A stretch of DNA of 40,408 bases from positions 1 to 40,408 of IMG/VR virus record IMGVR_UViG_2529292759_000002. One strand, written 5' to 3'. Made by a program: the position numbers and the translations under genes. This stretch comes from a virus (taxonomy: Duplodnaviria; Heunggongvirae; Uroviricota; Caudoviricetes). Positions 1,467 to 34,261 of this stretch are shown piece after piece; the stretch's first letter is position 1, and the number at the start of each line of letters is the position of its first letter. The notes beneath the pieces were generated by a model. It ran no database searches. It was not told the origin of the DNA and worked only from the letters and a program-made list of their open reading frames with translations.

Positions 1467-2126
1467 CTATCCTTCCTGGACTTTGGTAAGCGTCAGATTT
1501 CCGCAGAACACTGCGCCGGTGTCGATGTACATTTGGTTTGCATACACCAGTGGGTGATGTGCTGGCGTATGACCGAAGATGAACAAATCGGCACCGGTTA
1601 TCTCCGAGACAATACCGTCCTGCGCGTCGCTAACCCGCTCACGATTCCATATCACCATTTCTTCCGGTACTGGCTTATCGAATGCGTATTCGTTGTGCGG
1701 GTAGTCTGCGTGGCAGATGACGACCTTCTTATTGCCGGTAACCAGTTCGATAATCATCGGGAGGTTGGTAACCTTTGGCAGAAGGTATTTGAGTTGCACA
1801 TCCTGCTCAGAATCAAGTTGGTGCCACCATCCACCGCCGTTTGACATCCAATGTCCGAAACTTCCGCCGTTGACCAGTGCATCCAGCATCATCTGCTCAT
1901 GGTTGCCACGAACAGCTCGGAACCACGGCATAGTAATCAAATCCAGGCATTCGACGTTTTCAGCGCCGCGGTCAACAAGGTCACCAACGGAAATAAGCAA
2001 ATCGCGCGCCGGGTCGAATGAAACTTTGTCGAGTTCGTTCATCAGCAGTGTGTAGCACCCATGCAGATCGCCGACGACGAAGATATTGCACCAGTCAGCG
2101 CCATTGATGCGTTGATATAGGTTCAT
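1467..2126 (-). CDS. Ser/Thr protein phosphatase, lambda PPase type
   Basis: Start taken at internal Met (MNLYQ...); GDLHG, GDLVDRG and GNHE metallophosphatase motifs; long collinear similarity to lambda phosphatase as recalled. ATGA overlap with the upstream gene. Confidence 0.85.
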
Positions 2127-2785
2127 GCTGCACGCTCCCGCCCCTGGTTGTCTGTTGGTGACAGCGGAGCATTGCTGAATGCATTTGTTAATCCGCCAAT
2201 ATCCAACGCGTATCCAGGATGTAGTTGCACTGCCGGGTCTTCGCACTGATTACCCCAAACATCGAAACCATGAGACGTCTGGCGGGCGAACAGTTCAATG
2301 CGAGAAACATCGCCTAATAATTGCACAAGTTTTTCACGAACGATATCTGGCTTTCTTGAATGCTCAAGCCGCGGTGCGGTAAATGACTGAACGATCCCTG
2401 CATTAATGCGCGTAGGTAGTTTTCCCTTTACCGCAAACAGGCAATCTTCACTATTGGCGCGAGTCATGTGTCCCATACCCATAACCAGTTTATCTGGTTG
2501 TCGACTACCACATTTTATCCACGTGAAGCCCTTCATCGTCATCAGACGAAATCCCCAGGCTTCAACAACTTTTAGTGCTTCGAGTGGTTGTGTTGGCACC
2601 CACCACATGGCCAACAGACAGTTTTCAGCGGTCAAATCCCACACAGGAAGGCGGCAGATATCCAGCACACTCATAACCGGATATTTAAAACCGGCACCGC
2701 GATTACCATCTGCGGCTTTGTCCCGGTATACCCAGGGTGGATCTGCATAGATTAGTGTGTATTTCTTAGTCATAAACCACCCCAC
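2123..2785 (-). CDS. DNA N6-adenine methyltransferase, MT-A70-like (DPPW motif); orphan, no cognate nuclease seen
   Basis: IYADPPW motif near the N-terminus; 220 aa; start is GTG at 2785 or ATG at 2773. Confidence 0.7.
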
Positions 2786-3065
2786 AACATCCTATGCCGC
2801 TATAGTCGCCACGGCGAAGGCCGTTACCTTTTGTGATACATTGGTCCCTGCGAACCGCGATCCTTGCACGTTCAACATCACCAGAAGCAACATCCATACA
2901 CTGAAGCCAAAGGTGAGCGGCAATGCGGAACTGCCCTTTTTTCTCTCTTTCAATCGCGCGTTTTTCGATCTCTATCGCCGCAGGAGTAACGGCGACAATC
3001 TTTGACGGACTGCGCATTGAAACCTTATTCATGTGGTATTTTTCAAGTCGGCTTAACTTTCTCAC
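2766..3065 (-). CDS. Hypothetical protein (uncertain gene)
   Basis: 99-aa ORF in the leftward operon; no recognisable motif; overlaps the methyltransferase start. Confidence 0.3.
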   Translation of the reverse strand: MRKLSRLEKYHMNKVSMRSPSKIVAVTPAAIEIEKRAIEREKKGQFRIAAHLWLQCMDVASGDVERARIAVRRDQCITKGNGLRRGDYSGIGCCGVVYD

Positions 3066-3174
3066 TTAATCCAACCCTCTCTGAAAATTAATGCCAGCAG
3101 ATAAAGCCATGCTGAAACAGAGGCCAGGAATAAGTACCATCCTGACCATTTGCTCCAGTGCCTTAGCAGCGCAC

Positions 3175-3423
3175 TCATGCAGCGTTGCTCACGGGACGAT
3201 ATACACGTTGCTGAACAGGAGGCTTTTTACCCTGGAACTCTGCCGGGCTTGCTGCCTGACGTTCATCAAGCCAACGCTCAACTTCATCACGGTTCCATGC
3301 GCAGCGTTTATCGGTGATATACCAGCGTTTAGGAAATTCCCCTGCGCGCTCCATACGGTCGATAGTGCTCCATGACAGTGGCACCACCGCCAGGAGTTCT
3401 TTCTTACCTAATGCACCTTTCAT
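3175..3423 (-). CDS. AlpA/Xis-family small DNA-binding protein; candidate excisionase or regulator
   Basis: 82 aa; pattern LSWSTIDRMERAGEFPKRWYI...RCAWNRDEVERWLDER matches the AlpA/excisionase HTH signature. Confidence 0.65.
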   Translation of the reverse strand: MKGALGKKELLAVVPLSWSTIDRMERAGEFPKRWYITDKRCAWNRDEVERWLDERQAASPAEFQGKKPPVQQRVYRPVSNAA

Positions 3424-3472
3424 GAATACCTCTCTTGGTTGCAGTGCGGCGCACGTGGCGCCGCGGTGGTGG

Positions 3473-4495
3473 TTACTCGAATTCTGGACGCATATCGTTA
3501 AGCGTCATCATGAATTTTTGGTGATATTCATCACCGAGCTTTTCAGCCATGGTGTTAATTTCATTTTCAGCGCGCTTGAACATCGTTTTTGCATCTTCAG
3601 CAGATGGATCCAGGCTATTAAGTATCGCGATGATATATTCTCGAGCTTCTTCTCGTTCTGAATCTGAAATTGGCGACAGGTGTTGACGCTCATCGTCAAC
3701 TACGGAATATTCACCAGTGATAACAGCTGCGTTATCTTGGCTAAGTCCAGCTTCAGCGCGCTCATCCATAACAACAGCCTTCTGCATTTCAATAGAAACA
3801 GGAAGATATTTGAATAGTCGGCGAATTACTGTTTTTTTAGCCATCTCATCGAAGTGATCAACCCATGGGCCACTGCTACCGGCTTTGCTCAGTGCACGAA
3901 CTTTCTCAATGTCTGCCCGGCTCATAACTTCAAATTGGACTCCGCCATCTTTCAGTCGTGCAACGGCGTAAACGTGCGTTAATTCTCCGCGGTCACCTGT
4001 TTCGCAAGGTAAATGCTCGAGCGTTTCTTCCAGGCCGTATGAGTAGCTGAATTTGTCGTTTGTATGTACGGTACGAGCCGAGATACTCAGGATCTGCCCA
4101 GAGCGGCGGGCAAGGTCAATCATTCCGCGATAGCCGATAATCAGCTGTGCTTCTGTAGATACGGTTTCCCATCTTCCATTTACTTTCTGGCGTTTGTCGA
4201 ACGGTATCAGGTAAGCGTGTCCAAGAGTTCCGCCTGGTTCAAGACCCAATTGGGCACATTGCATAATTGCCCCCAGGAAGCTGGCTTGGTCGCATGATGC
4301 AAGTTTTGGAACCTTTCGGATCTCTGTGGTTGCTATGCGCGCCAGACGGTCTGCTGTCATGTGCTTTGGAAGTGCCAAAGCCATCTGAGCTTTAATTTTT
4401 GGGTCTGCCAGAAGTCCGGCCAGAGTTGTTGGTTTCTCATTATGATGTGCAACTTGGTTACCGGTAGCCGCTGCCTTAAGTGCATTGATAGACAT
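3473..4495 (-). CDS. recT: RecT-family single-strand annealing recombinase
   Basis: 340 aa; strong similarity to Rac RecT as recalled (IIGYRGMIDLARRSGQI, THVYAVARLKDGG.QFEVM, GPWV.H..EMAKKT.IRRLFKYLPVSIE). Confidence 0.9.
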   Translation of the reverse strand: MSINALKAAATGNQVAHHNEKPTTLAGLLADPKIKAQMALALPKHMTADRLARIATTEIRKVPKLASCDQASFLGAIMQCAQLGLEPGGTLGHAYLIPFDKRQKVNGRWETVSTEAQLIIGYRGMIDLARRSGQILSISARTVHTNDKFSYSYGLEETLEHLPCETGDRGELTHVYAVARLKDGGVQFEVMSRADIEKVRALSKAGSSGPWVDHFDEMAKKTVIRRLFKYLPVSIEMQKAVVMDERAEAGLSQDNAAVITGEYSVVDDERQHLSPISDSEREEAREYIIAILNSLDPSAEDAKTMFKRAENEINTMAEKLGDEYHQKFMMTLNDMRPEFE

Positions 4496-4504
4496 TTTTT
4501 CTCC

Positions 4505-5404
4505 TTACTTCATTCTGAAGACGCGTTGTGTCGTTGTTGTTTTGAATTTTTCGAATAACTCAGGGTGTACTGACTGGAATAGCTTCTGGTCGAATCTGTT
4601 GCTGATCTGAGATTTCCATGTGCAGAGCGGCTTTCCGTCCAGGGTCAGGACTGAGTGCTCTTGCATGTACATCTTCAGCTTCTCTTCTGATATAGCTATT
4701 TCTTCTTCCAGTGATTTTCTGCGTGACTTCATGTCTCGTAGATCGTTGAATAGTGCGAGTGCCTTTCCGTCAGCCTCGATACTTGTCCCGGCATCTTTCT
4801 CAAACATCAGCGATACATCGCTTACGCTGGTAGCTTCCGGCGGGTTAAGATTTTTCACTCGGTCCCAGAAAGCGATTTCTTTTTCTAAGATCGCCTGGAT
4901 AGTTTCTTCATCACGCTCAACCCGATAGATTCGGAAGTCGTCGCCACCGATAAGCACACCGAAAACGCATACCTGTTTGTTTGTAACCATCAACCCGTGC
5001 ATGGCCTGGGCCGTGTAATGCACAGGAATTGCATCTGTCTGGATTTCTCCCCATTCTTTGGCTTTGAACGGACTAACTGTTTTGATCTCAATGTTCTCGC
5101 CTGACGCTGCTTCTGCATCGATCTCAGCTGCAATAAAATCATAATCACGGTGGATATAGCGGTTTCCGCGATGAACGATTTCCATCCCTGTTTCCTCAGA
5201 AAGCAGGTCTATTACGTATGGCTCCATACGCTGGCCACGCGTGAAAACTTTCTGCTTGCTTGGGTCTACTGGTTTGACACGTGGCTGGACCTTATCCAGA
5301 TAAACCTCAAGCGGGGTGCGCCATGGGCTAATTCCAAGAATCCCTGCAACATCGCTTCCTCCGATGTATTTTGTTCTATCCATGATTCCAGCGTTCCGCA
5401 TCAT
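4505..5404 (-). CDS. YqaJ-type viral recombinase exonuclease (partner of RecT)
   Basis: 299 aa; YIGGSD..GILG and TRGQ..EP motifs typical of YqaJ/lambda-exo-like nucleases; immediately upstream of recT with ATGA overlap to the preceding gene. Confidence 0.8.
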   Translation of the reverse strand: MMRNAGIMDRTKYIGGSDVAGILGISPWRTPLEVYLDKVQPRVKPVDPSKQKVFTRGQRMEPYVIDLLSEETGMEIVHRGNRYIHRDYDFIAAEIDAEAASGENIEIKTVSPFKAKEWGEIQTDAIPVHYTAQAMHGLMVTNKQVCVFGVLIGGDDFRIYRVERDEETIQAILEKEIAFWDRVKNLNPPEATSVSDVSLMFEKDAGTSIEADGKALALFNDLRDMKSRRKSLEEEIAISEEKLKMYMQEHSVLTLDGKPLCTWKSQISNRFDQKLFQSVHPELFEKFKTTTTQRVFRMK

Positions 5405-5700
5405 GCCGCGTCCCTCTGCCCATCAAGCTGATCCGCCAGATCCCAGCGCGCTATAATTGCCATTGCCTCGCGCCGGTAGGCATCCATCAGTTCTTCGAAC
5501 TCAGGGCTGTCTTTAGCAGCCTCCAGCACTTCCTGACGAACGCCTTTGCCTGTTACAACGTCGAAAGTTGAGGACAGTTGATGAAGTCGGATGCTCTCAA
5601 TCAGTTCAACTTGTCGGTCATATAGCTGTTCTGACAGGCGGTAGTCCTTGTCGAATGCCAGCATGATTTTTTGAAGATTTTTCTGCTGATTAACGTTCAT
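5401..5700 (-). CDS. Hypothetical early protein (Gam/Abc-like position upstream of the recombination genes)
   Basis: About 100 aa from MNVNQQ; translationally coupled to flanking genes; function not recognisable. Confidence 0.5.
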   Translation of the reverse strand: MNVNQQKNLQKIMLAFDKDYRLSEQLYDRQVELIESIRLHQLSSTFDVVTGKGVRQEVLEAAKDSPEFEELMDAYRREAMAIIARWDLADQLDGQRDAA

Positions 5701-5702
5701 TA

Positions 5703-5855
5703 TCAGCCCTCCCATATCTCGTTATCGTTGGCTACATCGCGAGCTTCTTTGCTGACGAAAGCCCACTTAATGCCTTCCTGTAAGGTGCGGAACTTCCAGC
5801 TCATGAATCCGCATGCAGTAACGCAGTACCAACCGTTGATGATTTTCCACTGCAT
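5703..5855 (-). CDS. Small ORF, first gene of the leftward early operon (about 50 aa)
   Basis: Not in the ORF track (<60 aa); ATG at 5855 with GAGGT Shine-Dalgarno 6-10 nt upstream; stop abuts the next start. Confidence 0.4.
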   Translation of the reverse strand: MQWKIINGWYCVTACGFMSWKFRTLQEGIKWAFVSKEARDVANDNEIWEG

Positions 5856-5874
5856 AACTTGTTACCTCGGTCTG

Positions 5875-5951
5875 TTACCGTTGAGGTAATAATTATGCTT
5901 ATTTGGTTTGGTGTCAATAGATATGAGTTAAAAAAATTACCCGCAAGGTAA
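5875..5951 (-). promoter_or_regulatory. OL-like region: two 15-bp palindromes (TTACCGTTGAGGTAA 5875-5889; TTACCCGCAAGGTAA 5937-5951) flanking a candidate leftward promoter
   Basis: Palindromes 62 bp apart; minus-strand TTGACA at about 5922-5927 with a TAATTA/ATAATT -10 candidate about 16 bp downstream. Confidence 0.55.
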
Positions 5952-5960
5952 TCTATCTGG

Positions 5961-5986
5961 CAATAAAAAAGCCGCCATGAGGCGGC
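5961..5986 (-). terminator. Intrinsic terminator downstream of the repressor gene
   Basis: Minus-strand GCCGCC-TCAT-GGCGGC hairpin followed by TTTTTTATT. Confidence 0.7.
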
Positions 5987-6008
5987 TTACTTACTGAAAA
6001 CTATAGTT

Positions 6009-6593
6009 TTATTGTTTGTTTTTTTCGTTCTGGTTGATGACAAATTCAATGTAACTTTCGATCTTTGCTTTCTCGGTTTCGGGTAACAATGCGTAGCGTG
6101 AGCGGTCATAGTTGATAGTCGCAGGGTCGTGCGGGTGAATCAGTAGTTCATATCCGTGACGCCCGAATGCGGATGCAACATTCTCCAGGGTGGAAATGGA
6201 AACGCTGACCTCATTGTTTAACAGGCGGCTGATTGTCACCTGGGCGACGCCGGATGCGCGGTGAAGTTTTCCCTGTGTTGAAAGGTCGCGGCTTTCGCTC
6301 ATCCAGCGTTCCAGGTTGTGAGCCGCCAGCTGACCTATATCGCTCGGGCCGACAGGCTGAAAACCCTCCTGAGAAAGCGAACGATCAATATCAAGCCAGT
6401 TACGGGGTTTATTGGCGGCAGCTTCAATTTTTCGTGCAACCTGGTCGCCGATAACCTTCTTGCCAAGAGCCCAGCGGTTTACCAGATTTGCCTGAGTTCC
6501 AAGTTTTTCTGCCATCCGCGTCTGAACACCATTGAATTCACGGTCGATCAAGTCGTTGAGATTTTGCCTGCGGACGTCCTGGATACTTTTCAT
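6009..6593 (-). CDS. Prophage repressor candidate: tandem HTH (XRE-like) protein with no recognisable S24 autopeptidase domain
   Basis: 194 aa; two HTH-like segments (QTRMAEKLGTQANLVNRWALG and ASGVAQVTISRLLNNEV); divergent from the Cro-like gene with operator-like palindromes between; no GxSM...K signature. Confidence 0.7.
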   Translation of the reverse strand: MKSIQDVRRQNLNDLIDREFNGVQTRMAEKLGTQANLVNRWALGKKVIGDQVARKIEAAANKPRNWLDIDRSLSQEGFQPVGPSDIGQLAAHNLERWMSESRDLSTQGKLHRASGVAQVTISRLLNNEVSVSISTLENVASAFGRHGYELLIHPHDPATINYDRSRYALLPETEKAKIESYIEFVINQNEKNKQ

Positions 6594-6648
6594 TTTCTGG
6601 AAAATCGCCTCATATATGAATCAGTAGATGATTCAATTTAAAGCAATA

Positions 6649-6711
6649 TTACCCAACAGGTAAATGCACCTCATAGGTAACTATCCTTGATTTTTGTTAC
6701 CTTATGGGTGA
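6649..6711. promoter_or_regulatory. OR-like region: three 15-bp palindromic sites between the repressor and Cro-like genes
   Basis: TTACCCAACAGGTAA (6649-6663), GCACCTCATAGGTAA (6666-6680), TTACCTTATGGGTGA (6697-6711); triple arrangement resembles a lambdoid OR. Confidence 0.6.
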
Positions 6712-6747
6712 ATATTTATTATCTGAAATAAATATCAGGCAATAGCT

Positions 6748-6978
6748 ATGAGCGATAACGGACATTTCGATTTCAAAAAGCACTGGCTTGCACTTACTCC
6801 GGATGAGCGTGAAGCCTTCGCACAGGAAGCCGGAACGACGAGTCACTATATCCAGACTCACTTAACAGGTAAGCGCAAAATGCCAGGTAAAGTATTGATG
6901 AATGGGCTTTTTAAAGCCTGTAAAACAAGACAATGGTTGCGCTCAAAAGCAGAACTGGCATACTTCTTCTACTCATGA
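6748..6978 (+). CDS. Cro-like small DNA-binding protein
   Basis: 76 aa, basic; divergent from the repressor across the operator region; AGCTATG start context. Confidence 0.55.
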   Translation: MSDNGHFDFKKHWLALTPDEREAFAQEAGTTSHYIQTHLTGKRKMPGKVLMNGLFKACKTRQWLRSKAELAYFFYS

Positions 6979-7000
6979 TATCCAGCTACACCCCTCTGTA

Positions 7001-7024
7001 GACCGCCACCCGGCGGTCTTTTCA
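7001..7024 (+). terminator. Intrinsic terminator after the Cro-like gene
   Basis: GACCGCC-ACC-CGGCGGTC hairpin followed by TTTTCAT. Confidence 0.5.
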
Positions 7025-7033
7025 TATCTATTC

Positions 7034-7048
7034 GCACCTTAAAGGTAA
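7034..7048. promoter_or_regulatory. 15-bp palindromic site (GCACCTTAAAGGTAA) upstream of the replication operon
   Basis: Same left-half variant (GCACC) as the middle OR site; about 80 bp upstream of the 7129 start. Confidence 0.45.
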
Positions 7049-7128
7049 TAAAAAACCAAATATGGTTGATCTTTTTTTTGTGTCAGCACAAAATAACCGT
7101 AATCCCAATACTAATAACAGGGCTTACC

Positions 7129-7329
7129 ATGGAAATCATTACACGTATTGATGCCGCAAAGCGCGGACTTAAACGCTACTACACCGGAAAACCATGTAAG
7201 CACGGACATGACAGTGAACGCTGGGTTTACAACGGACACTGTGTTGAGTGCACCATGGAATCAAACCGTCGCATCAGGGCAGAGATTAAGCAGATCATGA
7301 TTAATTCCTCCCCACAACACTCAAGCTGA
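7129..7329 (+). CDS. Small Cys/His-rich protein in the cII-equivalent position
   Basis: 66 aa from the internal ATG at 7129; C-x-H-x-H ... C-x2-C pattern (CKHGHDSERWVYNGHCVEC); lies between the Cro-like gene and the O-like gene. Confidence 0.5.
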   Translation: MEIITRIDAAKRGLKRYYTGKPCKHGHDSERWVYNGHCVECTMESNRRIRAEIKQIMINSSPQHSS

Positions 7330-7344
7330 TAGCGGAGATTAATC

Positions 7345-8136
7345 ATGAGCAGACATGCAACAGATTGGGCCTGGGAGACAGATCCAGGTAGCTCGTCATT
7401 AAAGCTCATACTGCTCTCGATGGCTGACAGAGCCGATGAATATAACCTCTGCTACCCCAGCATAGAACGCCTCGTTAAAGACACTTGCCTGAATAAAAAA
7501 ACCGTGCAGGCCGGACTTATATCGCTCATGAAAATGGGGCTTATTTCAGATACCGGGGAGAGAAAGGGAGCGACAAAAAGAGTGCGGGTTTTCTCTCTTA
7601 ATATAACCAAAAACGGGAACATTAAAGGCAACCGAGAGGGGGGCAATGAACCCGAAAACGGTAATGTTACCGAAAACGGGAATATACCCAAAAACGGGAT
7701 GTTGAATGATCCCAAAAACGGGATCCAGAACCAGTCATATAACCAGTCATTTAACCAAGAGAGGGAGAGCAGGACAAAAAACGGGGATTCTGTGCATCAT
7801 GACCCCGGCGCAAACAACGCCGTGATGAATAACTTTGTTCCTCCTAGTGGGCCAGGGCAATTAGGCAAATTTGTCATGCATGAACAATGGCAGCCATCAG
7901 ATGACTTTCTTCGGAAAAGCTCATTGCAGGGGATCTACCTGGACAGTCTGCCAACGGCACAGGAACTTGCAGAGTTCAGAATTTACTGGATGGCTGAGGG
8001 TAAGGCATACCATCAGGCACAGTGGGAGCAGAAGCTGGCAAGGCGGCTGCAGATTAGCAGACAGAAGCAATCAACATTACCTGATAACAACGTTCCGCAC
8101 TGGAACAGCCCTGAAGCATGGGAGGATTTCTTGTGA
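7345..8136 (+). CDS. Replication initiator (O-like) with an internal iteron-encoded linker
   Basis: 263 aa; N-terminal winged-helix-like region; central repeated KNGN/ENGN peptide encoded by the DNA iterons; directly upstream of the P homologue. Confidence 0.65.
   Translation: MSRHATDWAWETDPGSSSLKLILLSMADRADEYNLCYPSIERLVKDTCLNKKTVQAGLISLMKMGLISDTGERKGATKRVRVFSLNITKNGNIKGNREGGNEPENGNVTENGNIPKNGMLNDPKNGIQNQSYNQSFNQERESRTKNGDSVHHDPGANNAVMNNFVPPSGPGQLGKFVMHEQWQPSDDFLRKSSLQGIYLDSLPTAQELAEFRIYWMAEGKAYHQAQWEQKLARRLQISRQKQSTLPDNNVPHWNSPEAWEDFL
7607..7724. repeat. Iteron array (candidate origin of replication) inside the O-like gene
   Basis: Five copies of CC(A/G)AAAACGG(G/T)A(A/T) starting near 7607, 7652, 7670, 7688 and 7712 (three at 18-bp spacing), followed by an AACCAGTCAT direct repeat. 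Confidence 0.65.
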
Positions 8137-16436: not shown

Positions 16437-18116
16437 ATGGCGGAAACAACTAAAGAGCGATTGAACAAACAGTTCGCACAACTTGAAAGCGAGCGTCAGT
16501 CGTTCGAGTCGCACTGGCGCGAGTTGAGTGATTACATCAACCCGCGTGGTTCCCGCTTTCTGACTTCTGAGGTTAACCGTAACGATCGACGCAATACACG
16601 CATTATTGATTCGACCGGGACTATGGCGGCGCGCACTCTTGCCAGCGGCATGATGTCAGGCATAACAAGCCCCGCCCGTCCGTGGTTTCGCCTGGCTACG
16701 CCAGATCCTGAAATGATGGACTATGGCCCTGTTAAGTTGTGGCTTGAGGCAGTTCAGAACCGCATGAACGATATGTTCAATAAGTCGAATCTCTACCAGT
16801 CCCTTCCGCAGTTATACGGAAGCCTCGGCACATACAGCACTGGTGCAATGGCGGTGCTGGAGGATGACGAGGACATCATTCGCACAATGCCATTCCCGAT
16901 AGGCAGTTACTACCTGGCTAACTCACCTCGTGGCAGTGTGGACACCTGTTTCCGCAAGTTCTCTATGACTGTTCGTCAGCTTGTTCAGGAGTTCGGGCTA
17001 AATAACGTCAGCGAATCCGTAAAAAGCATGTGGGAAAGCGGCACCTACGAGAAGTGGATTGAAGTGATGCATTCGGTTTACCCGAACATTGACCGCGATA
17101 CATCGAAGCTGGATAGCAAGAACAAGCCATTCAAATCGGTTTATTACGAGGTTGGTGGCGATAACGACAAGTTGTTGCGTGAGTCCGGATTCGATGAGTT
17201 TCCAATTATGGCTCCGCGCTGGGAAGTTAACGGCGAAGATGTTTATGGATCATCATGCCCGGGTATGCTGGCGCTTGGATCTGTTAAGGCATTGCAGCTT
17301 CTTCAGAAGCGCAAGTCGCAGTTGATTGATAAAGCCACCAATCCGCCGATGGTTGCTCCGACTTCCCTCAAGAATCAGCGCGCCTCCCTTCTTCCTGGCG
17401 ACATCACGTATATCGATCAGATTACTGGTCAGGATGGCTTCAGGCCTGCTTATCTGGTTAACCCCAGTACAGCAGATTTGGTGGCAGACATTCAGGACAC
17501 TCGTCAAATCATTAACAGCGCCTACTTTGTCGATCTGTTCATGATGTTGCAGAACATCAATACCCGCTCGATGCCTGTTGAAGCGGTGATCGAAATGAAA
17601 GAAGAAAAACTTCTGATGTTGGGGCCGGTTCTGGAGCGTCTGAACGACGAATGTCTTAATCCTCTCATTGACCGCGCTTTCTCGATGATGGTGCGTAAAA
17701 ACATGCTGCCGCCACCGCCTGACGCGATGGAAGGCATGCCCCTGAAGGTCGAATACATTTCCGTCATGGCTCAGGCGCAGAAGTCTATCGGCCTGTCCAG
17801 TCTGGCGTCCACGGTTAACTTCATTGGTCAACTTGCGCAAGCGAAACCAGAAGCTCTCGACAAACTCAACGTTGATCAGGCGATCGATGCATTCGCTGAT
17901 ATGTCCGGAGTGTCTCCAACCGTCATTGTTCCGCAGGAACAGGTTGAGCAGGCTCGCCAGCAACGGGCACAGCAACAACAGCAGCAACAAATGATGGCGA
18001 TGGGGATGGCGGCGGCACAGGGTGCCAAGACGCTAAGCGAAGCTAAAACTTCGGATCCGAGTGTTTTGTCAGCTATGGCGAATGCAGTTAGTGGTCAGGG
18101 TGGGCAATCACAATGA
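16437..18116 (+). CDS. Portal protein
   Basis: 559 aa; follows the terminase block and precedes scaffold and capsid; size and order typical of podovirus portals. Confidence 0.8.
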   Translation: MAETTKERLNKQFAQLESERQSFESHWRELSDYINPRGSRFLTSEVNRNDRRNTRIIDSTGTMAARTLASGMMSGITSPARPWFRLATPDPEMMDYGPVKLWLEAVQNRMNDMFNKSNLYQSLPQLYGSLGTYSTGAMAVLEDDEDIIRTMPFPIGSYYLANSPRGSVDTCFRKFSMTVRQLVQEFGLNNVSESVKSMWESGTYEKWIEVMHSVYPNIDRDTSKLDSKNKPFKSVYYEVGGDNDKLLRESGFDEFPIMAPRWEVNGEDVYGSSCPGMLALGSVKALQLLQKRKSQLIDKATNPPMVAPTSLKNQRASLLPGDITYIDQITGQDGFRPAYLVNPSTADLVADIQDTRQIINSAYFVDLFMMLQNINTRSMPVEAVIEMKEEKLLMLGPVLERLNDECLNPLIDRAFSMMVRKNMLPPPPDAMEGMPLKVEYISVMAQAQKSIGLSSLASTVNFIGQLAQAKPEALDKLNVDQAIDAFADMSGVSPTVIVPQEQVEQARQQRAQQQQQQQMMAMGMAAAQGAKTLSEAKTSDPSVLSAMANAVSGQGGQSQ

Positions 18117-32389: not shown

Positions 32390-32686
32390 ATGCAAGCGAT
32401 AGGATTCATTGTTTATATCGTCGTTGGCCTTTTTCAGTTGGCAGCAATTATGGCTGGGCTTGAATCATGGTGGGGATTGCACTGGATAATTGCAGCCCCC
32501 ATTGCTTTCATCGTGAGCTATATTCCATTTGTTGGAGCGATTGTTGGTATGGTTGGCGCTGTGGATGTATGGCGGTGGGAGTGGTGGCAGGCTGGCCTTC
32601 TCTTCTTTGGTGGGATCATCTTTGCTATTGTCTGCGGTGGAATGTCATCATTTTTCGAATGGCTATCATTCAGAAAAGGGACGTGA
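32390..32686 (+). CDS. Small Trp-rich integral membrane protein (candidate superinfection-exclusion or lysogenic-conversion factor)
   Basis: 98 aa with 2-3 hydrophobic helices; located after the ejection proteins; followed by a bidirectional terminator. Confidence 0.45.
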   Translation: MQAIGFIVYIVVGLFQLAAIMAGLESWWGLHWIIAAPIAFIVSYIPFVGAIVGMVGAVDVWRWEWWQAGLLFFGGIIFAIVCGGMSSFFEWLSFRKGT

Positions 32687-32756
32687 CATGTCACAGGCCG
32701 CTTTCGCGGCCTTGTTTTTAACGAATGCCACCGCCGCCCGGGCGGGAATCCGCAGA

Positions 32757-33565: not shown

Positions 33566-34261
33566 TCAGAAGAACCCTGCCTTGTCGTTGATGTACTCCG
33601 CGTGGGTCTGGATATCACGCAGGCATTTGCTCACACCGACGATGTAGCAGAACATGGTGGTCAGTTCCGCCGCCGCGCCCGATACGTCGTGCCCGTCTTC
33701 CTGTAACTGGTTCAGCAGATTCATCAGCAGTGAGTTCTCCGTCAGGCCGAGAACACCAGACGGCGAATGAATCAGGCTACGGTAGCCGGGCTTCAGTGGG
33801 GCACTGTAGGTTTTGTTCTCTATCTTCATCGCCTGCATTACTGCTGACGCCGTGGCGTTGGCTACCTGGTCGGCAACCATCTTTATGCGTTCTTCCTGCG
33901 GGAGCGAGTTTTTAATGTAACTTCCGGTGCGGCGGATCTGAGGAAGAACCTCACCTGTAACCCATTTACGAAAGCGGTAGGGGATAGTGCCTGGTGTCAC
34001 TGCGTCGCGGCAGCGGAGGATCAGTGTGTAGAGGCCTGACTCGGAGATGATGATCGATTCTTGCTCACCGCCAGGGGTGTCGGTTGAAGCGACGCCCTTC
34101 TCATCATCATCAAGTTTTCGAACAGCATCTCGATGGTTTGCTATGCCTATAGCCCGACAAACATCTGAAGCGATAAACCATGGCTCACCATTAATGACGA
34201 TTACCCGTATATCGGCTTGGGATTCGAAAGAAAAAATGGACGTGCTTTTTGTAGCTGTCAT
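33566..34261 (-). CDS. Bro-N / KilA-N domain antirepressor (Ant-like)
   Basis: 231 aa; N-terminal pattern IRVIVINGEPWFIASDVCRAIGIANHRDAVRKL...ESGLYTLILR typical of Bro-N antirepressors; C-terminal domain paralogous to the small upstream gene. Confidence 0.75.
   Translation of the reverse strand: MTATKSTSIFSFESQADIRVIVINGEPWFIASDVCRAIGIANHRDAVRKLDDDEKGVASTDTPGGEQESIIISESGLYTLILRCRDAVTPGTIPYRFRKWVTGEVLPQIRRTGSYIKNSLPQEERIKMVADQVANATASAVMQAMKIENKTYSAPLKPGYRSLIHSPSGVLGLTENSLLMNLLNQLQEDGHDVSGAAAELTTMFCYIVGVSKCLRDIQTHAEYINDKAGFF

What the first reader, a model, noticed from the sequence alone, without database searches (positions are those of the whole stretch)
5401..5951. The leftward early operon begins with two small unknown proteins rather than an N-type antiterminator
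Downstream of the TTGACA-containing leftward promoter, the first genes are a roughly 50-aa ORF (5703-5855) and a roughly 100-aa protein (5401-5700), tightly coupled to the exonuclease and RecT genes. Neither has the Arg-rich N-terminus of N proteins; the 100-aa protein sits where lambda carries gam and P22 carries abc, so a RecBCD-inhibitor role is a reasonable guess.
Basis: inference. Interest (0 to 1): 0.35.

Follow-up and report, generated by a model that had tools for sequence, protein, structure and literature searches.

The report
Divergent Gam-like gene before RecET
The two small genes that open the leftward early operon of this phiV10/epsilon15-type prophage are real, conserved genes: the 99-residue one is a distant, so far unannotated relative of the lambda Gam nuclease inhibitor, and the 50-residue one remains unexplained.

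Summary
The window is a phiV10/epsilon15-like (Uetakevirus) prophage. A sigma-70 promoter flanked by two repressor operators drives ORF50 (5703-5855), ORF99 (5401-5700), a YqaJ exonuclease and RecT, all translationally coupled. I found no N-like protein, no nut site and no predicted terminator in the operon.

ORF99 is annotated "hypothetical" everywhere. It is a remote homologue of the core of lambda Gam, residues 33-90 of GamS:
- hhalign probability is 85-89%.
- An ORF99-family HMM scores all nine Gam sequences above 900 shuffles.
- Gam is the only match among 25 known small early-left proteins.
- Length, acidity and position just upstream of the recombinase genes all match Gam.

An identical ORF99 sits beside two unrelated exonuclease families, which points to a host target. 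A RecBCD/SbcCD-inhibitor role is therefore the best reading, but it is not proven:
- The N-terminal helix that plugs RecB is not conserved.
- The structure models are poor.
- These phages carry 4-9 Chi sites, all in one orientation, a trait typical of phages without a RecBCD inhibitor.

ORF50 is under strong purifying selection (dN/dS about 0.1) and matches no known family.

Verdict: an ordinary known operon layout containing a new, divergent member of the Gam family.

The parts
6009..6593 (-). Prophage repressor (194 aa, two HTH domains). This is context: it controls the operon.
   Evidence: Pfam HTH_3 and HTH_26. PDB 5D50, the phage SPC32H repressor, E=4e-42. Homologue of the ZX5 ORF21 repressor (PMC9782041).
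5969..5988 (-). Intrinsic terminator that ends the repressor transcript just upstream of PL.
   Evidence: 8-bp stem with 6 GC pairs followed by a T-run. The same feature is annotated in phiV10.
5937..5951 (.). Operator palindrome TTACCCGCAAGGTAA, upstream of the -35 hexamer.
   Evidence: Perfect match to TTACC-N5-GGTAA. The window holds 14 such sites against 0.79 expected. Equivalent repressor sites are annotated in epsilon15.
5889..5917 (-). Leftward early promoter: -35 TTGACA (5917-5912), 17-nt spacer, -10 AATTAT (5894-5889).
   Evidence: 10 of 12 consensus positions, the best in 2000-7500. The architecture is conserved in epsilon15, BUCT711, L004 and L005.
5875..5889 (.). Operator palindrome TTACCGTTGAGGTAA, overlapping the -10 hexamer and the transcription start.
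5703..5855 (-). ORF50, the first gene of the operon (50 aa; equals PhiV10p39 and epsilon15 gp37; phrog_898). Function unknown.
   Evidence: Shine-Dalgarno GAGG at 5868-5865. Full-length phrog_898 hit. The N-terminal 36 residues are conserved. dN/dS is about 0.1. Found in the same 36 phage records as ORF99.
5401..5700 (-). ORF99 (99 aa; equals PhiV10p38 and epsilon15 gp36; phrog_856). A divergent homologue of the lambda Gam core and a candidate host-nuclease inhibitor.
   Evidence: hhalign against Gam gives probability 85-89%, aligning query 31-86 to Gam 33-90, with controls. Family member P0087 hits Pfam Gam at E=0.0042. PDB Gam entries 5MBV and 2UUZ score E=0.075. HMM cross-searches. Specificity panel.
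4505..5404 (-). YqaJ-type 5'-3' recombination exonuclease. Its start overlaps the ORF99 stop (ATGA).
   Evidence: Pfam YqaJ at 2.7e-23. TIGR03033. phrog_434.
3473..4495 (-). RecT single-strand annealing protein.
   Evidence: Pfam RecT at 2.6e-57. NF007351 at 3.6e-128.

Best explanation
When the repressor leaves the two operators that bracket PL, host RNA polymerase makes one leftward transcript with a leader of about 27 nt. It reads ORF50, ORF99, exonuclease, RecT, an AlpA-type Xis and further genes. No intrinsic terminator is predicted on that strand between 5900 and 2000, so no N-type antiterminator is needed. The genes are translationally coupled through 2-nt or overlapping stop/start junctions.

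ORF99 is a diverged member of the lambda Gam lineage. It is probably a small acidic all-helical dimer whose conserved core corresponds to GamS residues 33-90. It most likely binds a host DNA-end-processing nuclease (RecBCD and/or SbcCD) and keeps it off the linear DNA ends and recombination intermediates on which the phage exonuclease and RecT act. Together these genes would form a gam-exo-recT recombination module.

ORF50 is a separately conserved small early protein. It occupies the position that kil takes in lambda, phi80, SEN34 and phiES15. It is most likely a host-directed effector, but its target is unknown.

Shown here: the anatomy, the coding status of both ORFs, the remote homology of ORF99 to Gam, and its independence of the exonuclease type. 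Inferred: dimerisation, the target, and inhibition.
For: **Anatomy and coupling:**

**Homology of ORF99 to Gam**
- A profile of the family against PDB sequences gives lambda Gam (5MBV, 2UUZ) as the best single-stretch hit: E=0.075, query 30-86 against chain 32-90.
- Family member P0087 hits Pfam Gam PF06064 at E=0.0042, residues 31-94 against profile positions 33-96 of 98.
- hhalign of family against family gives probability 88% (E 2.8e-6), and 85% after adding the divergent phiES15 and SEN34 Gams.
- Controls: the real hhalign score is 37.3, against 18.6 and 18.3 for reversed profiles and a maximum of 19.2 in 200 column shuffles.
- The ORF99 HMM scores nine Gam sequences at 12.7-22.2 bits. Reversed sequences reach at most 5.8 and 900 shuffles at most 10.1.
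- The Gam HMM gives positive scores for all 18 family members. The window copy scores 9.0 bits, reached by 0.4% of shuffles.
- Among 25 known small early-left proteins of lambda, P22, phi80 and phiES15, only the two Gams stand out.

**Other shared properties**
- Size is 99 aa against 98 aa, and the alignment is collinear.
- pI is 4.7 with net charge -6, against 5.0 and -10 for GamS.
- The protein is predicted all-helical with a long N-terminal helix.
- The gene lies directly upstream of the exonuclease and annealase genes in most relatives examined. In L004, BUCT711 and Tyrion one small ORF intervenes.

**Independence of the exonuclease**
- The 100%-identical ORF99 of phiV10 sits beside a DUF3799-RecT fusion, whereas the window has YqaJ plus RecT.
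- The mosaic joint falls exactly at the ORF99 stop. This fits a host-directed rather than exonuclease-specific function.

**Further context**
- Homologues of phi80 Mog/Agt, annotated "modifier of Gam", lie immediately upstream of the ORF99 homologue in L004 and phiv142-3, as mog does for gamL in phi80.
- The kil-then-gam gene order is seen in lambda, phi80, phiES15 and SEN34.
Against: - The window copy gets no Pfam, NCBIfam or PDB hit by itself. The best family member is below the Pfam Gam cut-off (17.7 against 25 bits).
- Residues 1-30, the counterpart of the Gam helix that inserts into the RecB ssDNA channel (PMC5218532), do not align with Gam. By contrast phi80 GamL shares exactly that helix with lambda Gam.
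- The genome carries 9 Chi sites, all on one strand, against 1.35 expected from shuffles (about 2.0 on that strand under a trinucleotide model). Three relatives show the same pattern: phiV10 8/0, epsilon15 6/0 and BUCT711 4/0.
[quoted passage not shown] Phages with Gam or Abc2 avoid Chi (PMC3784561).
- Mog-like genes also occur without any Gam, as in mEp234.
- No functional data exist for any member of the family.
- ORF50 has no detectable relative of known function.
Confidence: 0.5

Rival explanations
1. ORF99 is a true Gam-lineage protein that no longer blocks RecBCD. It has been retargeted, for example to SbcCD or to another end-binding helicase-nuclease or defence system. Alternatively it only modulates RecBCD, so that the phage still relies on Chi-activated RecBCD.
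For: - Homology covers only the Gam core and not the RecB-channel helix.
- Chi sites are over-represented and strictly co-oriented in four diverged genus members. This implies that RecBCD acts productively on phage DNA.
- The phi80 record names SbcCD together with RecBCD as a target of the positionally analogous inhibitor GamL.
Against: [quoted passage not shown]
- Chi could act before early genes are expressed.
- No alternative target is indicated by any data here.
Confidence: 0.27
2. ORF99 is unrelated to Gam. The similarity is convergence between small acidic helical proteins. The protein is an accessory factor of the phage recombination or replication machinery, like P22 Arf or Abc1, or something else entirely.
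For: - No database-scale hit passes a curated threshold.
- Identity in the aligned core is only 21%.
- Three structure searches did not find Gam.
Against: - Reversed and shuffled controls, which keep composition (and, when reversed, helical periodicity), score far lower.
- Two independent libraries, Pfam and PDB, both pick Gam.
- None of 23 other small early-left proteins scores.
- The identical ORF99 sits beside two unrelated exonuclease families. That argues against a partner-specific accessory role.
- There is no similarity to Arf, Abc1 or Abc2.
Confidence: 0.15
3. ORF50 is the functional counterpart of a known small PL-operon protein. Candidates are a Kil-type cell-division (FtsZ) inhibitor, a CIII-type FtsH inhibitor that biases towards lysogeny, or a protein antiterminator of a new kind that replaces N.
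For: - It occupies the position of kil or cIII upstream of gam.
- It is the first protein made from PL.
- It is more conserved than its neighbour: 79-85% against 45-50% identity to epsilon15 and Tyrion.
- By eye, its MQWxI..GW and L(Q/R)(E/D)G.K motifs resemble lambda CIII.
Against: - There is no detectable similarity to the lambda, P22 or phi80 Kil types, to CIII/C3, Arf, Ral, N or gp24. hhalign probability is at most 0.8%.
- The CIII resemblance is not significant: p is about 0.1 against shuffles, and 0.04-0.34 for other members.
- It has no Arg-rich motif, and there is no nut site or predicted terminator to overcome in this operon.
- The AlphaFold model is uninformative (pLDDT 57).
Confidence: 0.25

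Closest known systems
Lambda Gam (GamS, Pfam PF06064; PDB 2UUZ, 5MBV)
   Same: - Size is 98-99 aa and the protein is acidic.
- It is predicted all-helical with a long N-terminal helix.
- The core aligns collinearly (ORF99 31-86 with GamS 33-90) and includes the shared G...A...(D/E)xEF(E/Q)E motif.
- It is encoded in the PL operon just before the phage exonuclease and annealase genes and after a small gene.
   Different: - Identity in the core is only about 21%, below the Pfam threshold.
- The N-terminal 30 residues, which form the RecB-channel helix in Gam, are unrelated.
- The conserved C-terminal tail WDLADQ(L/I)D..R.AA is not found in Gam.
- The partner genes are RecE-like/RecT rather than Exo/Beta.
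- The host genome is Chi-rich rather than Chi-poor.
- No biochemistry is available.
phi80 GamL with Mog/Agt (GenBank JX871397 annotation)
   Same: - It is a small RecBCD/SbcCD inhibitor gene directly upstream of recT-type and exo genes.
- In L004 and phiv142-3 a Mog homologue (49-55% identical) lies directly upstream of the ORF99 homologue, as mog does for gamL.
   Different: - The ORF99 family shows no sequence relation to GamL (hhalign probability 0.2%).
- GamL shares only the N-terminal helix with lambda Gam, whereas ORF99 shares only the core.
- The window itself has no Mog gene.
P22 Abc2/Abc1 (anti-RecBCD, hijacking type)
   Same: It lies in the same operon region and is of similar size.
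   Different: There is no sequence relation (probability at most 0.7%). In P22, abc1 and abc2 lie downstream of erf, not upstream of the recombinase genes.
PhiV10p38/p39 and epsilon15 gp36/gp37 (phrog_856 and phrog_898)
   Same: These are the same genes: 100% and 50% identity for ORF99, and 100% and 79% for ORF50. The synteny is identical.
   Different: Nothing differs apart from the neighbouring exonuclease type. All are annotated "hypothetical protein".
Lambda/P22/phi80 Kil and CIII (for ORF50)
   Same: A protein of 47-69 aa encoded just upstream of gam in the early-left operon.
   Different: No detectable sequence or profile similarity.

Membership tests
Lambda Gam family (PF06064) | Match to the family profile at the curated threshold | tested here: not met
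   The window ORF99 has no Pfam hit even at E<=1. Only 1 of 16 family members is reported: P0087 at 17.7 bits against a cut-off of 25, E=0.0042.
Lambda Gam family (PF06064) | Remote homology by profile-profile or HMM comparison, above controls | tested here: met
   hhalign probability is 85-89%. The real hhalign score is 37.3, against 18.3-18.6 for the two reversed profiles and at most 19.2 for shuffles. In HMM cross-searches all real pairs exceed the reversed sequences, and all nine Gams exceed 900 shuffles. Only the Gams match in a 25-protein panel.
Lambda Gam family (PF06064) | N-terminal helix (MNAY..DRIE..W) that inserts into the RecB ssDNA channel | tested here: not met
   Residues 1-30 of ORF99 are not aligned to Gam by any method. 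phi80 GamL does share this segment with lambda Gam. The segment is nevertheless predicted helical.
Lambda Gam family (PF06064) | Gam fold (helical dimer, PDB 2UUZ) | tested here: inconclusive
Lambda Gam family (PF06064) | Acidic, DNA-mimicking surface | tested here: inconclusive
   Composition only: pI 4.71 and net charge -6, against 4.99 and -10 for GamS. The surface pattern cannot be judged from a low-confidence model.
Lambda Gam family (PF06064) | Gene lies in the early-left operon directly before the phage exonuclease and annealase genes | tested here: met
   One small ORF intervenes in L004, BUCT711 and Tyrion.
Lambda Gam family (PF06064) | Binds and inhibits RecBCD (and SbcCD) | not testable with these tools
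   This needs biochemistry or genetics. No literature on the family was found.
Phages with an anti-RecBCD function (genome-level correlate) | Chi sites avoided, with an observed/expected ratio of about 0-0.3 | tested here: not met
   The window has 9 top-strand and 0 bottom-strand Chi sites against 1.35 expected. phiV10 has 8/0, epsilon15 6/0 and BUCT711 4/0. Reference values come from PMC3784561 and PMC12315714.
N-type antiterminators (lambda N, P22 gp24, phi80 N) | Arg-rich RNA-binding motif near the N-terminus | tested here: not met
   No ORF of 60-200 aa in the window has 5 or more Arg in any 12-residue stretch of its first 30 residues. ORF50 and ORF99 profiles do not match N or gp24.
N-type antiterminators (lambda N, P22 gp24, phi80 N) | A nut site (boxA/boxB) in the leader and terminators to override | tested here: not met
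   The leader is about 27 nt. boxA-like strings occur only at 16459, 20855 and 30019. No minus-strand terminator is predicted between 5900 and 2000. Rfam found nothing above threshold.
P22 Abc2 / Abc1 | Sequence or profile similarity | tested here: not met
   hhalign probabilities are 0.7% and 0.1%. There is no PF11043 hit.
Kil (lambda, P22, phi80 types) and CIII, for ORF50 | Sequence or profile similarity | tested here: not met
   BLASTP found no alignment. hhalign probability is at most 0.5%. The shuffle test against CIII gives p of about 0.1.

The most novel reading that the evidence does not exclude
A Gam-fold protein is stably maintained across a whole phage genus that also keeps selected, co-oriented Chi sites. 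On this reading it is not a RecBCD blocker. It would be a retargeted end-mimic aimed at SbcCD or at another end-sensing nuclease or defence system, or a conditional modulator that lets Chi-activated RecBCD and RecET work together. ORF50, the very conserved first PL product, would be a new class of small host-takeover protein.
Probability: 0.25. Interest if true: 0.6.

Novelty: new member of a known kind. Interest (0 to 1): 0.38.

Why it matters
- **How common the genes are.** The gene pair is present in 559 of 5426 complete E. coli genomes and in all 36 Uetakevirus-like phage records that hold either gene. It is annotated "hypothetical" in every annotated record and genome row inspected.
- **Annotation and classification.** Recognising ORF99 as a diverged Gam would complete a gam-exo-recT module in these phages. 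It would also change how they are classed in surveys that relate Rec modules, RecBCD inhibitors and Chi content. They would become a genus-wide exception, with both an inhibitor-like gene and oriented Chi sites.
- **Practical use.** It offers a candidate third component for RecET-based recombineering.
- **Domain history.** Lambda Gam shares its N-terminal helix with phi80 GamL and its core with ORF99. This suggests that these small inhibitors evolve by swapping domains.

Tried and rejected
**Structure-based searches**
- AF2 of ORF50 gave a single low-confidence helix, so I did not search with it.

**Ideas about ORF50**
- ORF50 as a relative of lambda CIII, which looked plausible by eye, is not significant.
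- ORF50 as a zinc-binding protein is rejected. The one Pfam hit (Phage_zn_bind_5, E=0.0024) is to the C-terminally divergent variant P0077 only. The two Cys residues are replaced in L003, L004 and L005.
- ORF50 as a lipoprotein (VTAC lipobox) is rejected because that Cys is not conserved.
- ORF50 as a membrane peptide is rejected because the L004 homologue has Asp and Arg in the segment.
- ORF50 shows no match to the three Kil types, Arf, Ral or N.

**Ideas about ORF99**
- An internal duplication in ORF99 is not significant (p=0.27).
- ORF99 shows no match to phi80 GamL or to P22 Abc1 or Abc2.

**Other searches that led nowhere**
- Rfam on 5000-7300 found only sub-threshold hits on the terminator hairpin.
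- The Mog adjacency cannot count as Gam-specific evidence, because Mog-like genes occur without Gam in mEp234.
- Papers on phi80 GamL/Mog (PMC3510586) were not held in the library, and a full-text search for SPC32H did not surface its primary papers.
Full report
**What the window is.** The 800 bases around the finding match Escherichia phages phiV10, TL-2011b, ZX5 and relatives at 96-99% identity, and epsilon15-type Salmonella, Klebsiella and Enterobacter phages more distantly. The window is therefore a prophage of the genus Uetakevirus. In the annotated phiV10 and epsilon15 records the two small genes are PhiV10p39/p38 and gp37/gp36, all "hypothetical protein".

**Checking the observation.**
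- On the minus strand, a repressor with two HTH domains (6009-6593) ends in a terminator (5988-5969).
- The repressor matches the solved SPC32H repressor, PDB 5D50, at E=4e-42.
- A promoter follows: -35 TTGACA at 5917-5912, a 17-nt spacer, and -10 AATTAT at 5894-5889. It is the best promoter match in 2000-7500.
- The promoter sits between two perfect TTACC-N5-GGTAA palindromes at 5937-5951 and 5875-5889.
- ORF50 runs 5855-5703 and has a Shine-Dalgarno GAGG nine bases upstream of its ATG.
- ORF99 starts at the ATG at 5700, 2 nt after the ORF50 stop, behind GGGAGGG. Homologues all start MN(V/I), so the upstream ATG at 5715 is not the start.
- The ORF99 stop overlaps the ATG of a YqaJ exonuclease (ATGA, 5404-5401), and RecT follows.
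- Both ORFs hit PHROG families of unknown function over their full length.
- Both evolve under purifying selection in this frame. For ORF50, window versus epsilon15 gives dN 0.117 against dS 1.17. For ORF99, pN is 0.32-0.41 against a saturated pS.

**No N-type antiterminator.**
- No small ORF in the window has an Arg-rich N-terminus, and boxA-like strings occur only far away in the late region.
- The leader is about 27 nt. No minus-strand intrinsic terminator is predicted between 5900 and 2000. Rfam finds nothing.
- The nine early-right proteins I scanned have no N or Q domains, and none is annotated in phiV10 or epsilon15.
- The operator palindrome occurs 14 times in the window against 0.79 expected. 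Sites lie after the replication genes and in front of the terminase gene.
- The epsilon15 RefSeq record already annotates such dispersed repressor sites. Control of several transcription units by the repressor may therefore take the place that antitermination has in lambda. This is inference, and the layout itself is already known.

**ORF99: family and homology.** The family is small.
- Word-based search finds only relatives at 74% identity or more, from Escherichia, Salmonella, Shigella, Citrobacter and Kluyvera.
- An exhaustive profile search of 1.84 billion representatives finds 31 clusters.
- It occurs in 36 phage records, all Uetakevirus-like.

With the more divergent members added (alignment A3), several searches point to lambda Gam.
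- The profile's best single-stretch hit in the PDB sequence library is lambda Gam (5MBV, 2UUZ) at E=0.075, aligning 30-86 to 32-90.
- Member P0087 hits Pfam Gam at E=0.0042, aligning 31-94 to 33-96 of 98. This is below the curated cut-off.
- Profile-profile comparison with a Gam alignment gives probability 88% (E 2.8e-6) over 56 columns, ORF99 31-86 against GamS 33-90.
- After adding the divergent phiES15 and SEN34 Gams the probability is 85%.

The controls hold up.
- Reversed profiles score 18.3-18.6, and 200 column shuffles reach at most 19.2, against 37.3 for the real pair.
- The ORF99 HMM gives nine Gam sequences 12.7-22.2 bits. The reversed sequences reach at most 5.8 bits and 900 shuffles at most 10.1.
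- The Gam HMM gives all 18 family members positive scores. The window copy scores 9.0 bits, a value reached by 0.4% of shuffles.
- Against a panel of 25 known small early-left proteins from lambda, P22, phi80 and phiES15, only the two Gams stand out (24.3 and 21.2). Everything else scores 14 or less, including P22 Abc1 and Abc2, Arf, the Kil proteins, CIII, Ral, N and phi80 GamL.

Length (99 against 98 aa), collinearity, acidity (pI 4.7 against 5.0) and a predicted all-helical structure with a long first helix also agree with Gam. I put homology to the Gam core at about 0.8.

**ORF99: context.**
- In most relatives examined the gene lies immediately upstream of the exonuclease and annealase pair. 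In L004, BUCT711 and Tyrion one small ORF intervenes.
- The pair itself is swapped between relatives. The window, epsilon15 and L003 have YqaJ plus RecT. L004, L005, BUCT711, Tyrion and phiv142-3 have a DUF3799 PD-(D/E)XK nuclease plus a divergent RecT. phiV10 has a DUF3799-RecT fusion.
- phiV10 encodes an ORF99 identical to the window's. The nucleotide similarity between the two phages stops exactly at the ORF99 stop codon.
- A protein that stays unchanged while its nuclease neighbour changes family is more likely aimed at the host than at the nuclease.
- In L004 and phiv142-3, a homologue of phi80 Agt/Mog lies directly upstream of the ORF99 homologue (49% and 55% identity, E 2e-72 and 2e-97). 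In phi80, mog lies the same way before gamL. The phi80 record annotates Agt/Mog as "anti-toxin for Gam; modifier of Gam".
- This is only modest support, because Mog-like genes are widespread and also occur without Gam, as in mEp234.

**Evidence against a plain lambda-Gam function.**
- The N-terminal 30 residues do not align with Gam. In Gam this helix enters the RecB ssDNA channel (PMC5218532). phi80 GamL shares precisely this helix with lambda Gam and nothing else, while ORF99 shares only the core.
- The AlphaFold model is poor, and three fold searches did not recover Gam. I count this as inconclusive.
- The window has 9 Chi sites, all on the + strand, against 1.35 expected. phiV10 has 8/0, epsilon15 6/0 and Klebsiella phage BUCT711 4/0, all in the direction of late-gene transcription.
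- In lambdoid phages, Gam or Abc2 goes with Chi avoidance (PMC3784561). [quoted passage not shown]
- Taken as a likelihood ratio of roughly 0.17, this pulls the functional claim down substantially. Here the trait is genus-wide, so it is not the product of a recent module exchange.

My estimates are about 0.5 that ORF99 inhibits a host end-processing nuclease, about 0.4 that the nuclease is RecBCD specifically, and about 0.27 that it is a retargeted or modulating Gam relative.

**ORF50.**
- It occurs in the same 36 phage records as ORF99.
- In all relatives examined it lies between the PL promoter and the ORF99 homologue, and it is the first gene there except in L003, where a 76-aa ORF precedes it.
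- It is more conserved than ORF99: 79-85% against 45-50% identity to epsilon15 and Tyrion.
- The first 36 residues are conserved and rich in aromatic residues, while the tail varies.
- Its two cysteines are not conserved in distant members.
- Pfam, NCBIfam, PDB sequences and the panel of Kil, CIII, Arf, Ral and N proteins give nothing.
- A by-eye resemblance to lambda CIII is not significant, and the structure model is useless.
- By position it corresponds to kil, since the order kil-gam-recombinase is seen in lambda, phi80, phiES15 and SEN34.
- A host-directed effector is my best guess, held at low confidence.

**Verdict.** The operon layout without N is the known Uetakevirus arrangement. Whether it inhibits RecBCD is open, and the oriented Chi sites argue against that. 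The pair occurs in about 10% of complete E. coli genomes, so a correct annotation would be useful, but this is a new member of a known kind, not a new kind of system.

Noticed in passing
window 151, 5875, 5937, 6649, 6697, 8956, 9018, 12542, 12560, 15493, 16111, 33478, 34531, 34911: The operator-like palindrome TTACC-N5-GGTAA occurs 14 times (allowing one mismatch) against 0.79 expected. Sites lie beyond the immunity region, for example after the replication genes and just before the terminase gene. The epsilon15 RefSeq record already annotates dispersed repressor-binding sites, so this is probably known biology: one repressor controlling several transcription units.
   Followed up: partly
window 1072, 19605, 21952, 23073, 24875, 28049, 28464, 30296, 31670 (all + strand): There are nine Chi sites (GCTGGTGG), all in one orientation, against 1.35 expected. 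The same one-sided excess is seen in phiV10 (8/0), epsilon15 (6/0) and Klebsiella phage BUCT711 (4/0). The early region carries none except the site at 1072 in int.
   Followed up: partly
window 5398-5404 (ORF99 stop / exonuclease start): There is a mosaic joint. phiV10-type phages are 96-97% identical to the window from here rightwards but not leftwards. phiV10 carries a DUF3799-RecT fusion (586 aa) where the window has separate YqaJ exonuclease and RecT genes.
   Followed up: yes
L004 3013-3993; L030 (phiv142-3) 1261-2295: Some relatives carry a homologue of phi80 Agt/Mog (annotated "modifier of Gam"; 49-55% identical) inserted between the ORF50 and ORF99 homologues. Mog-like genes are widespread (154 phage records) and also occur in phages without Gam, such as mEp234.
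   Followed up: partly
L021 (phi80) 7555-7836 versus lambda gam: phi80 GamL and lambda Gam share only the N-terminal helix (MNAY..DRIE..W; hhalign probability 92% over 26 columns). The ORF99 family shares only the Gam core. This suggests these small inhibitors are mosaics of exchangeable segments.
   Followed up: partly
L022 (epsilon15) 32466-32690; L025 (BUCT711) 7069-7288; L004 2612-2863: In these relatives the PL leader is about 100 nt longer than in the window. It contains a hairpin, which in L004 is followed by a T-run like a terminator, and a third operator abutting the ORF50 ribosome-binding site. The window lacks this segment.
   Followed up: no
window 7000-7019 (+): A strong intrinsic terminator lies directly after the cro-like gene (6748-6978). 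It is also annotated in phiV10. How rightward transcription passes it without an N-like factor is not explained.
   Followed up: no
window 1467-2120 (-): A calcineurin-like metallophosphatase gene (Pfam Metallophos, 1.2e-15) lies next to the integrase gene. phiV10 has a DUF1382 gene at this position instead.
   Followed up: partly
window 5401-5951: This stretch is present at 80% coverage or more in 506 of 5426 complete E. coli genomes, and in 559 with any match. In every row listed, both genes are annotated "hypothetical protein".
   Followed up: yes
L023 (Enterobacter phage Tyrion) 4060-4272 (+): The Tyrion record annotates a plus-strand gene (gp39) where the conserved ORF50 homologue lies on the minus strand (record 34032-34175). 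This is probably a wrong-strand gene call.
   Followed up: no
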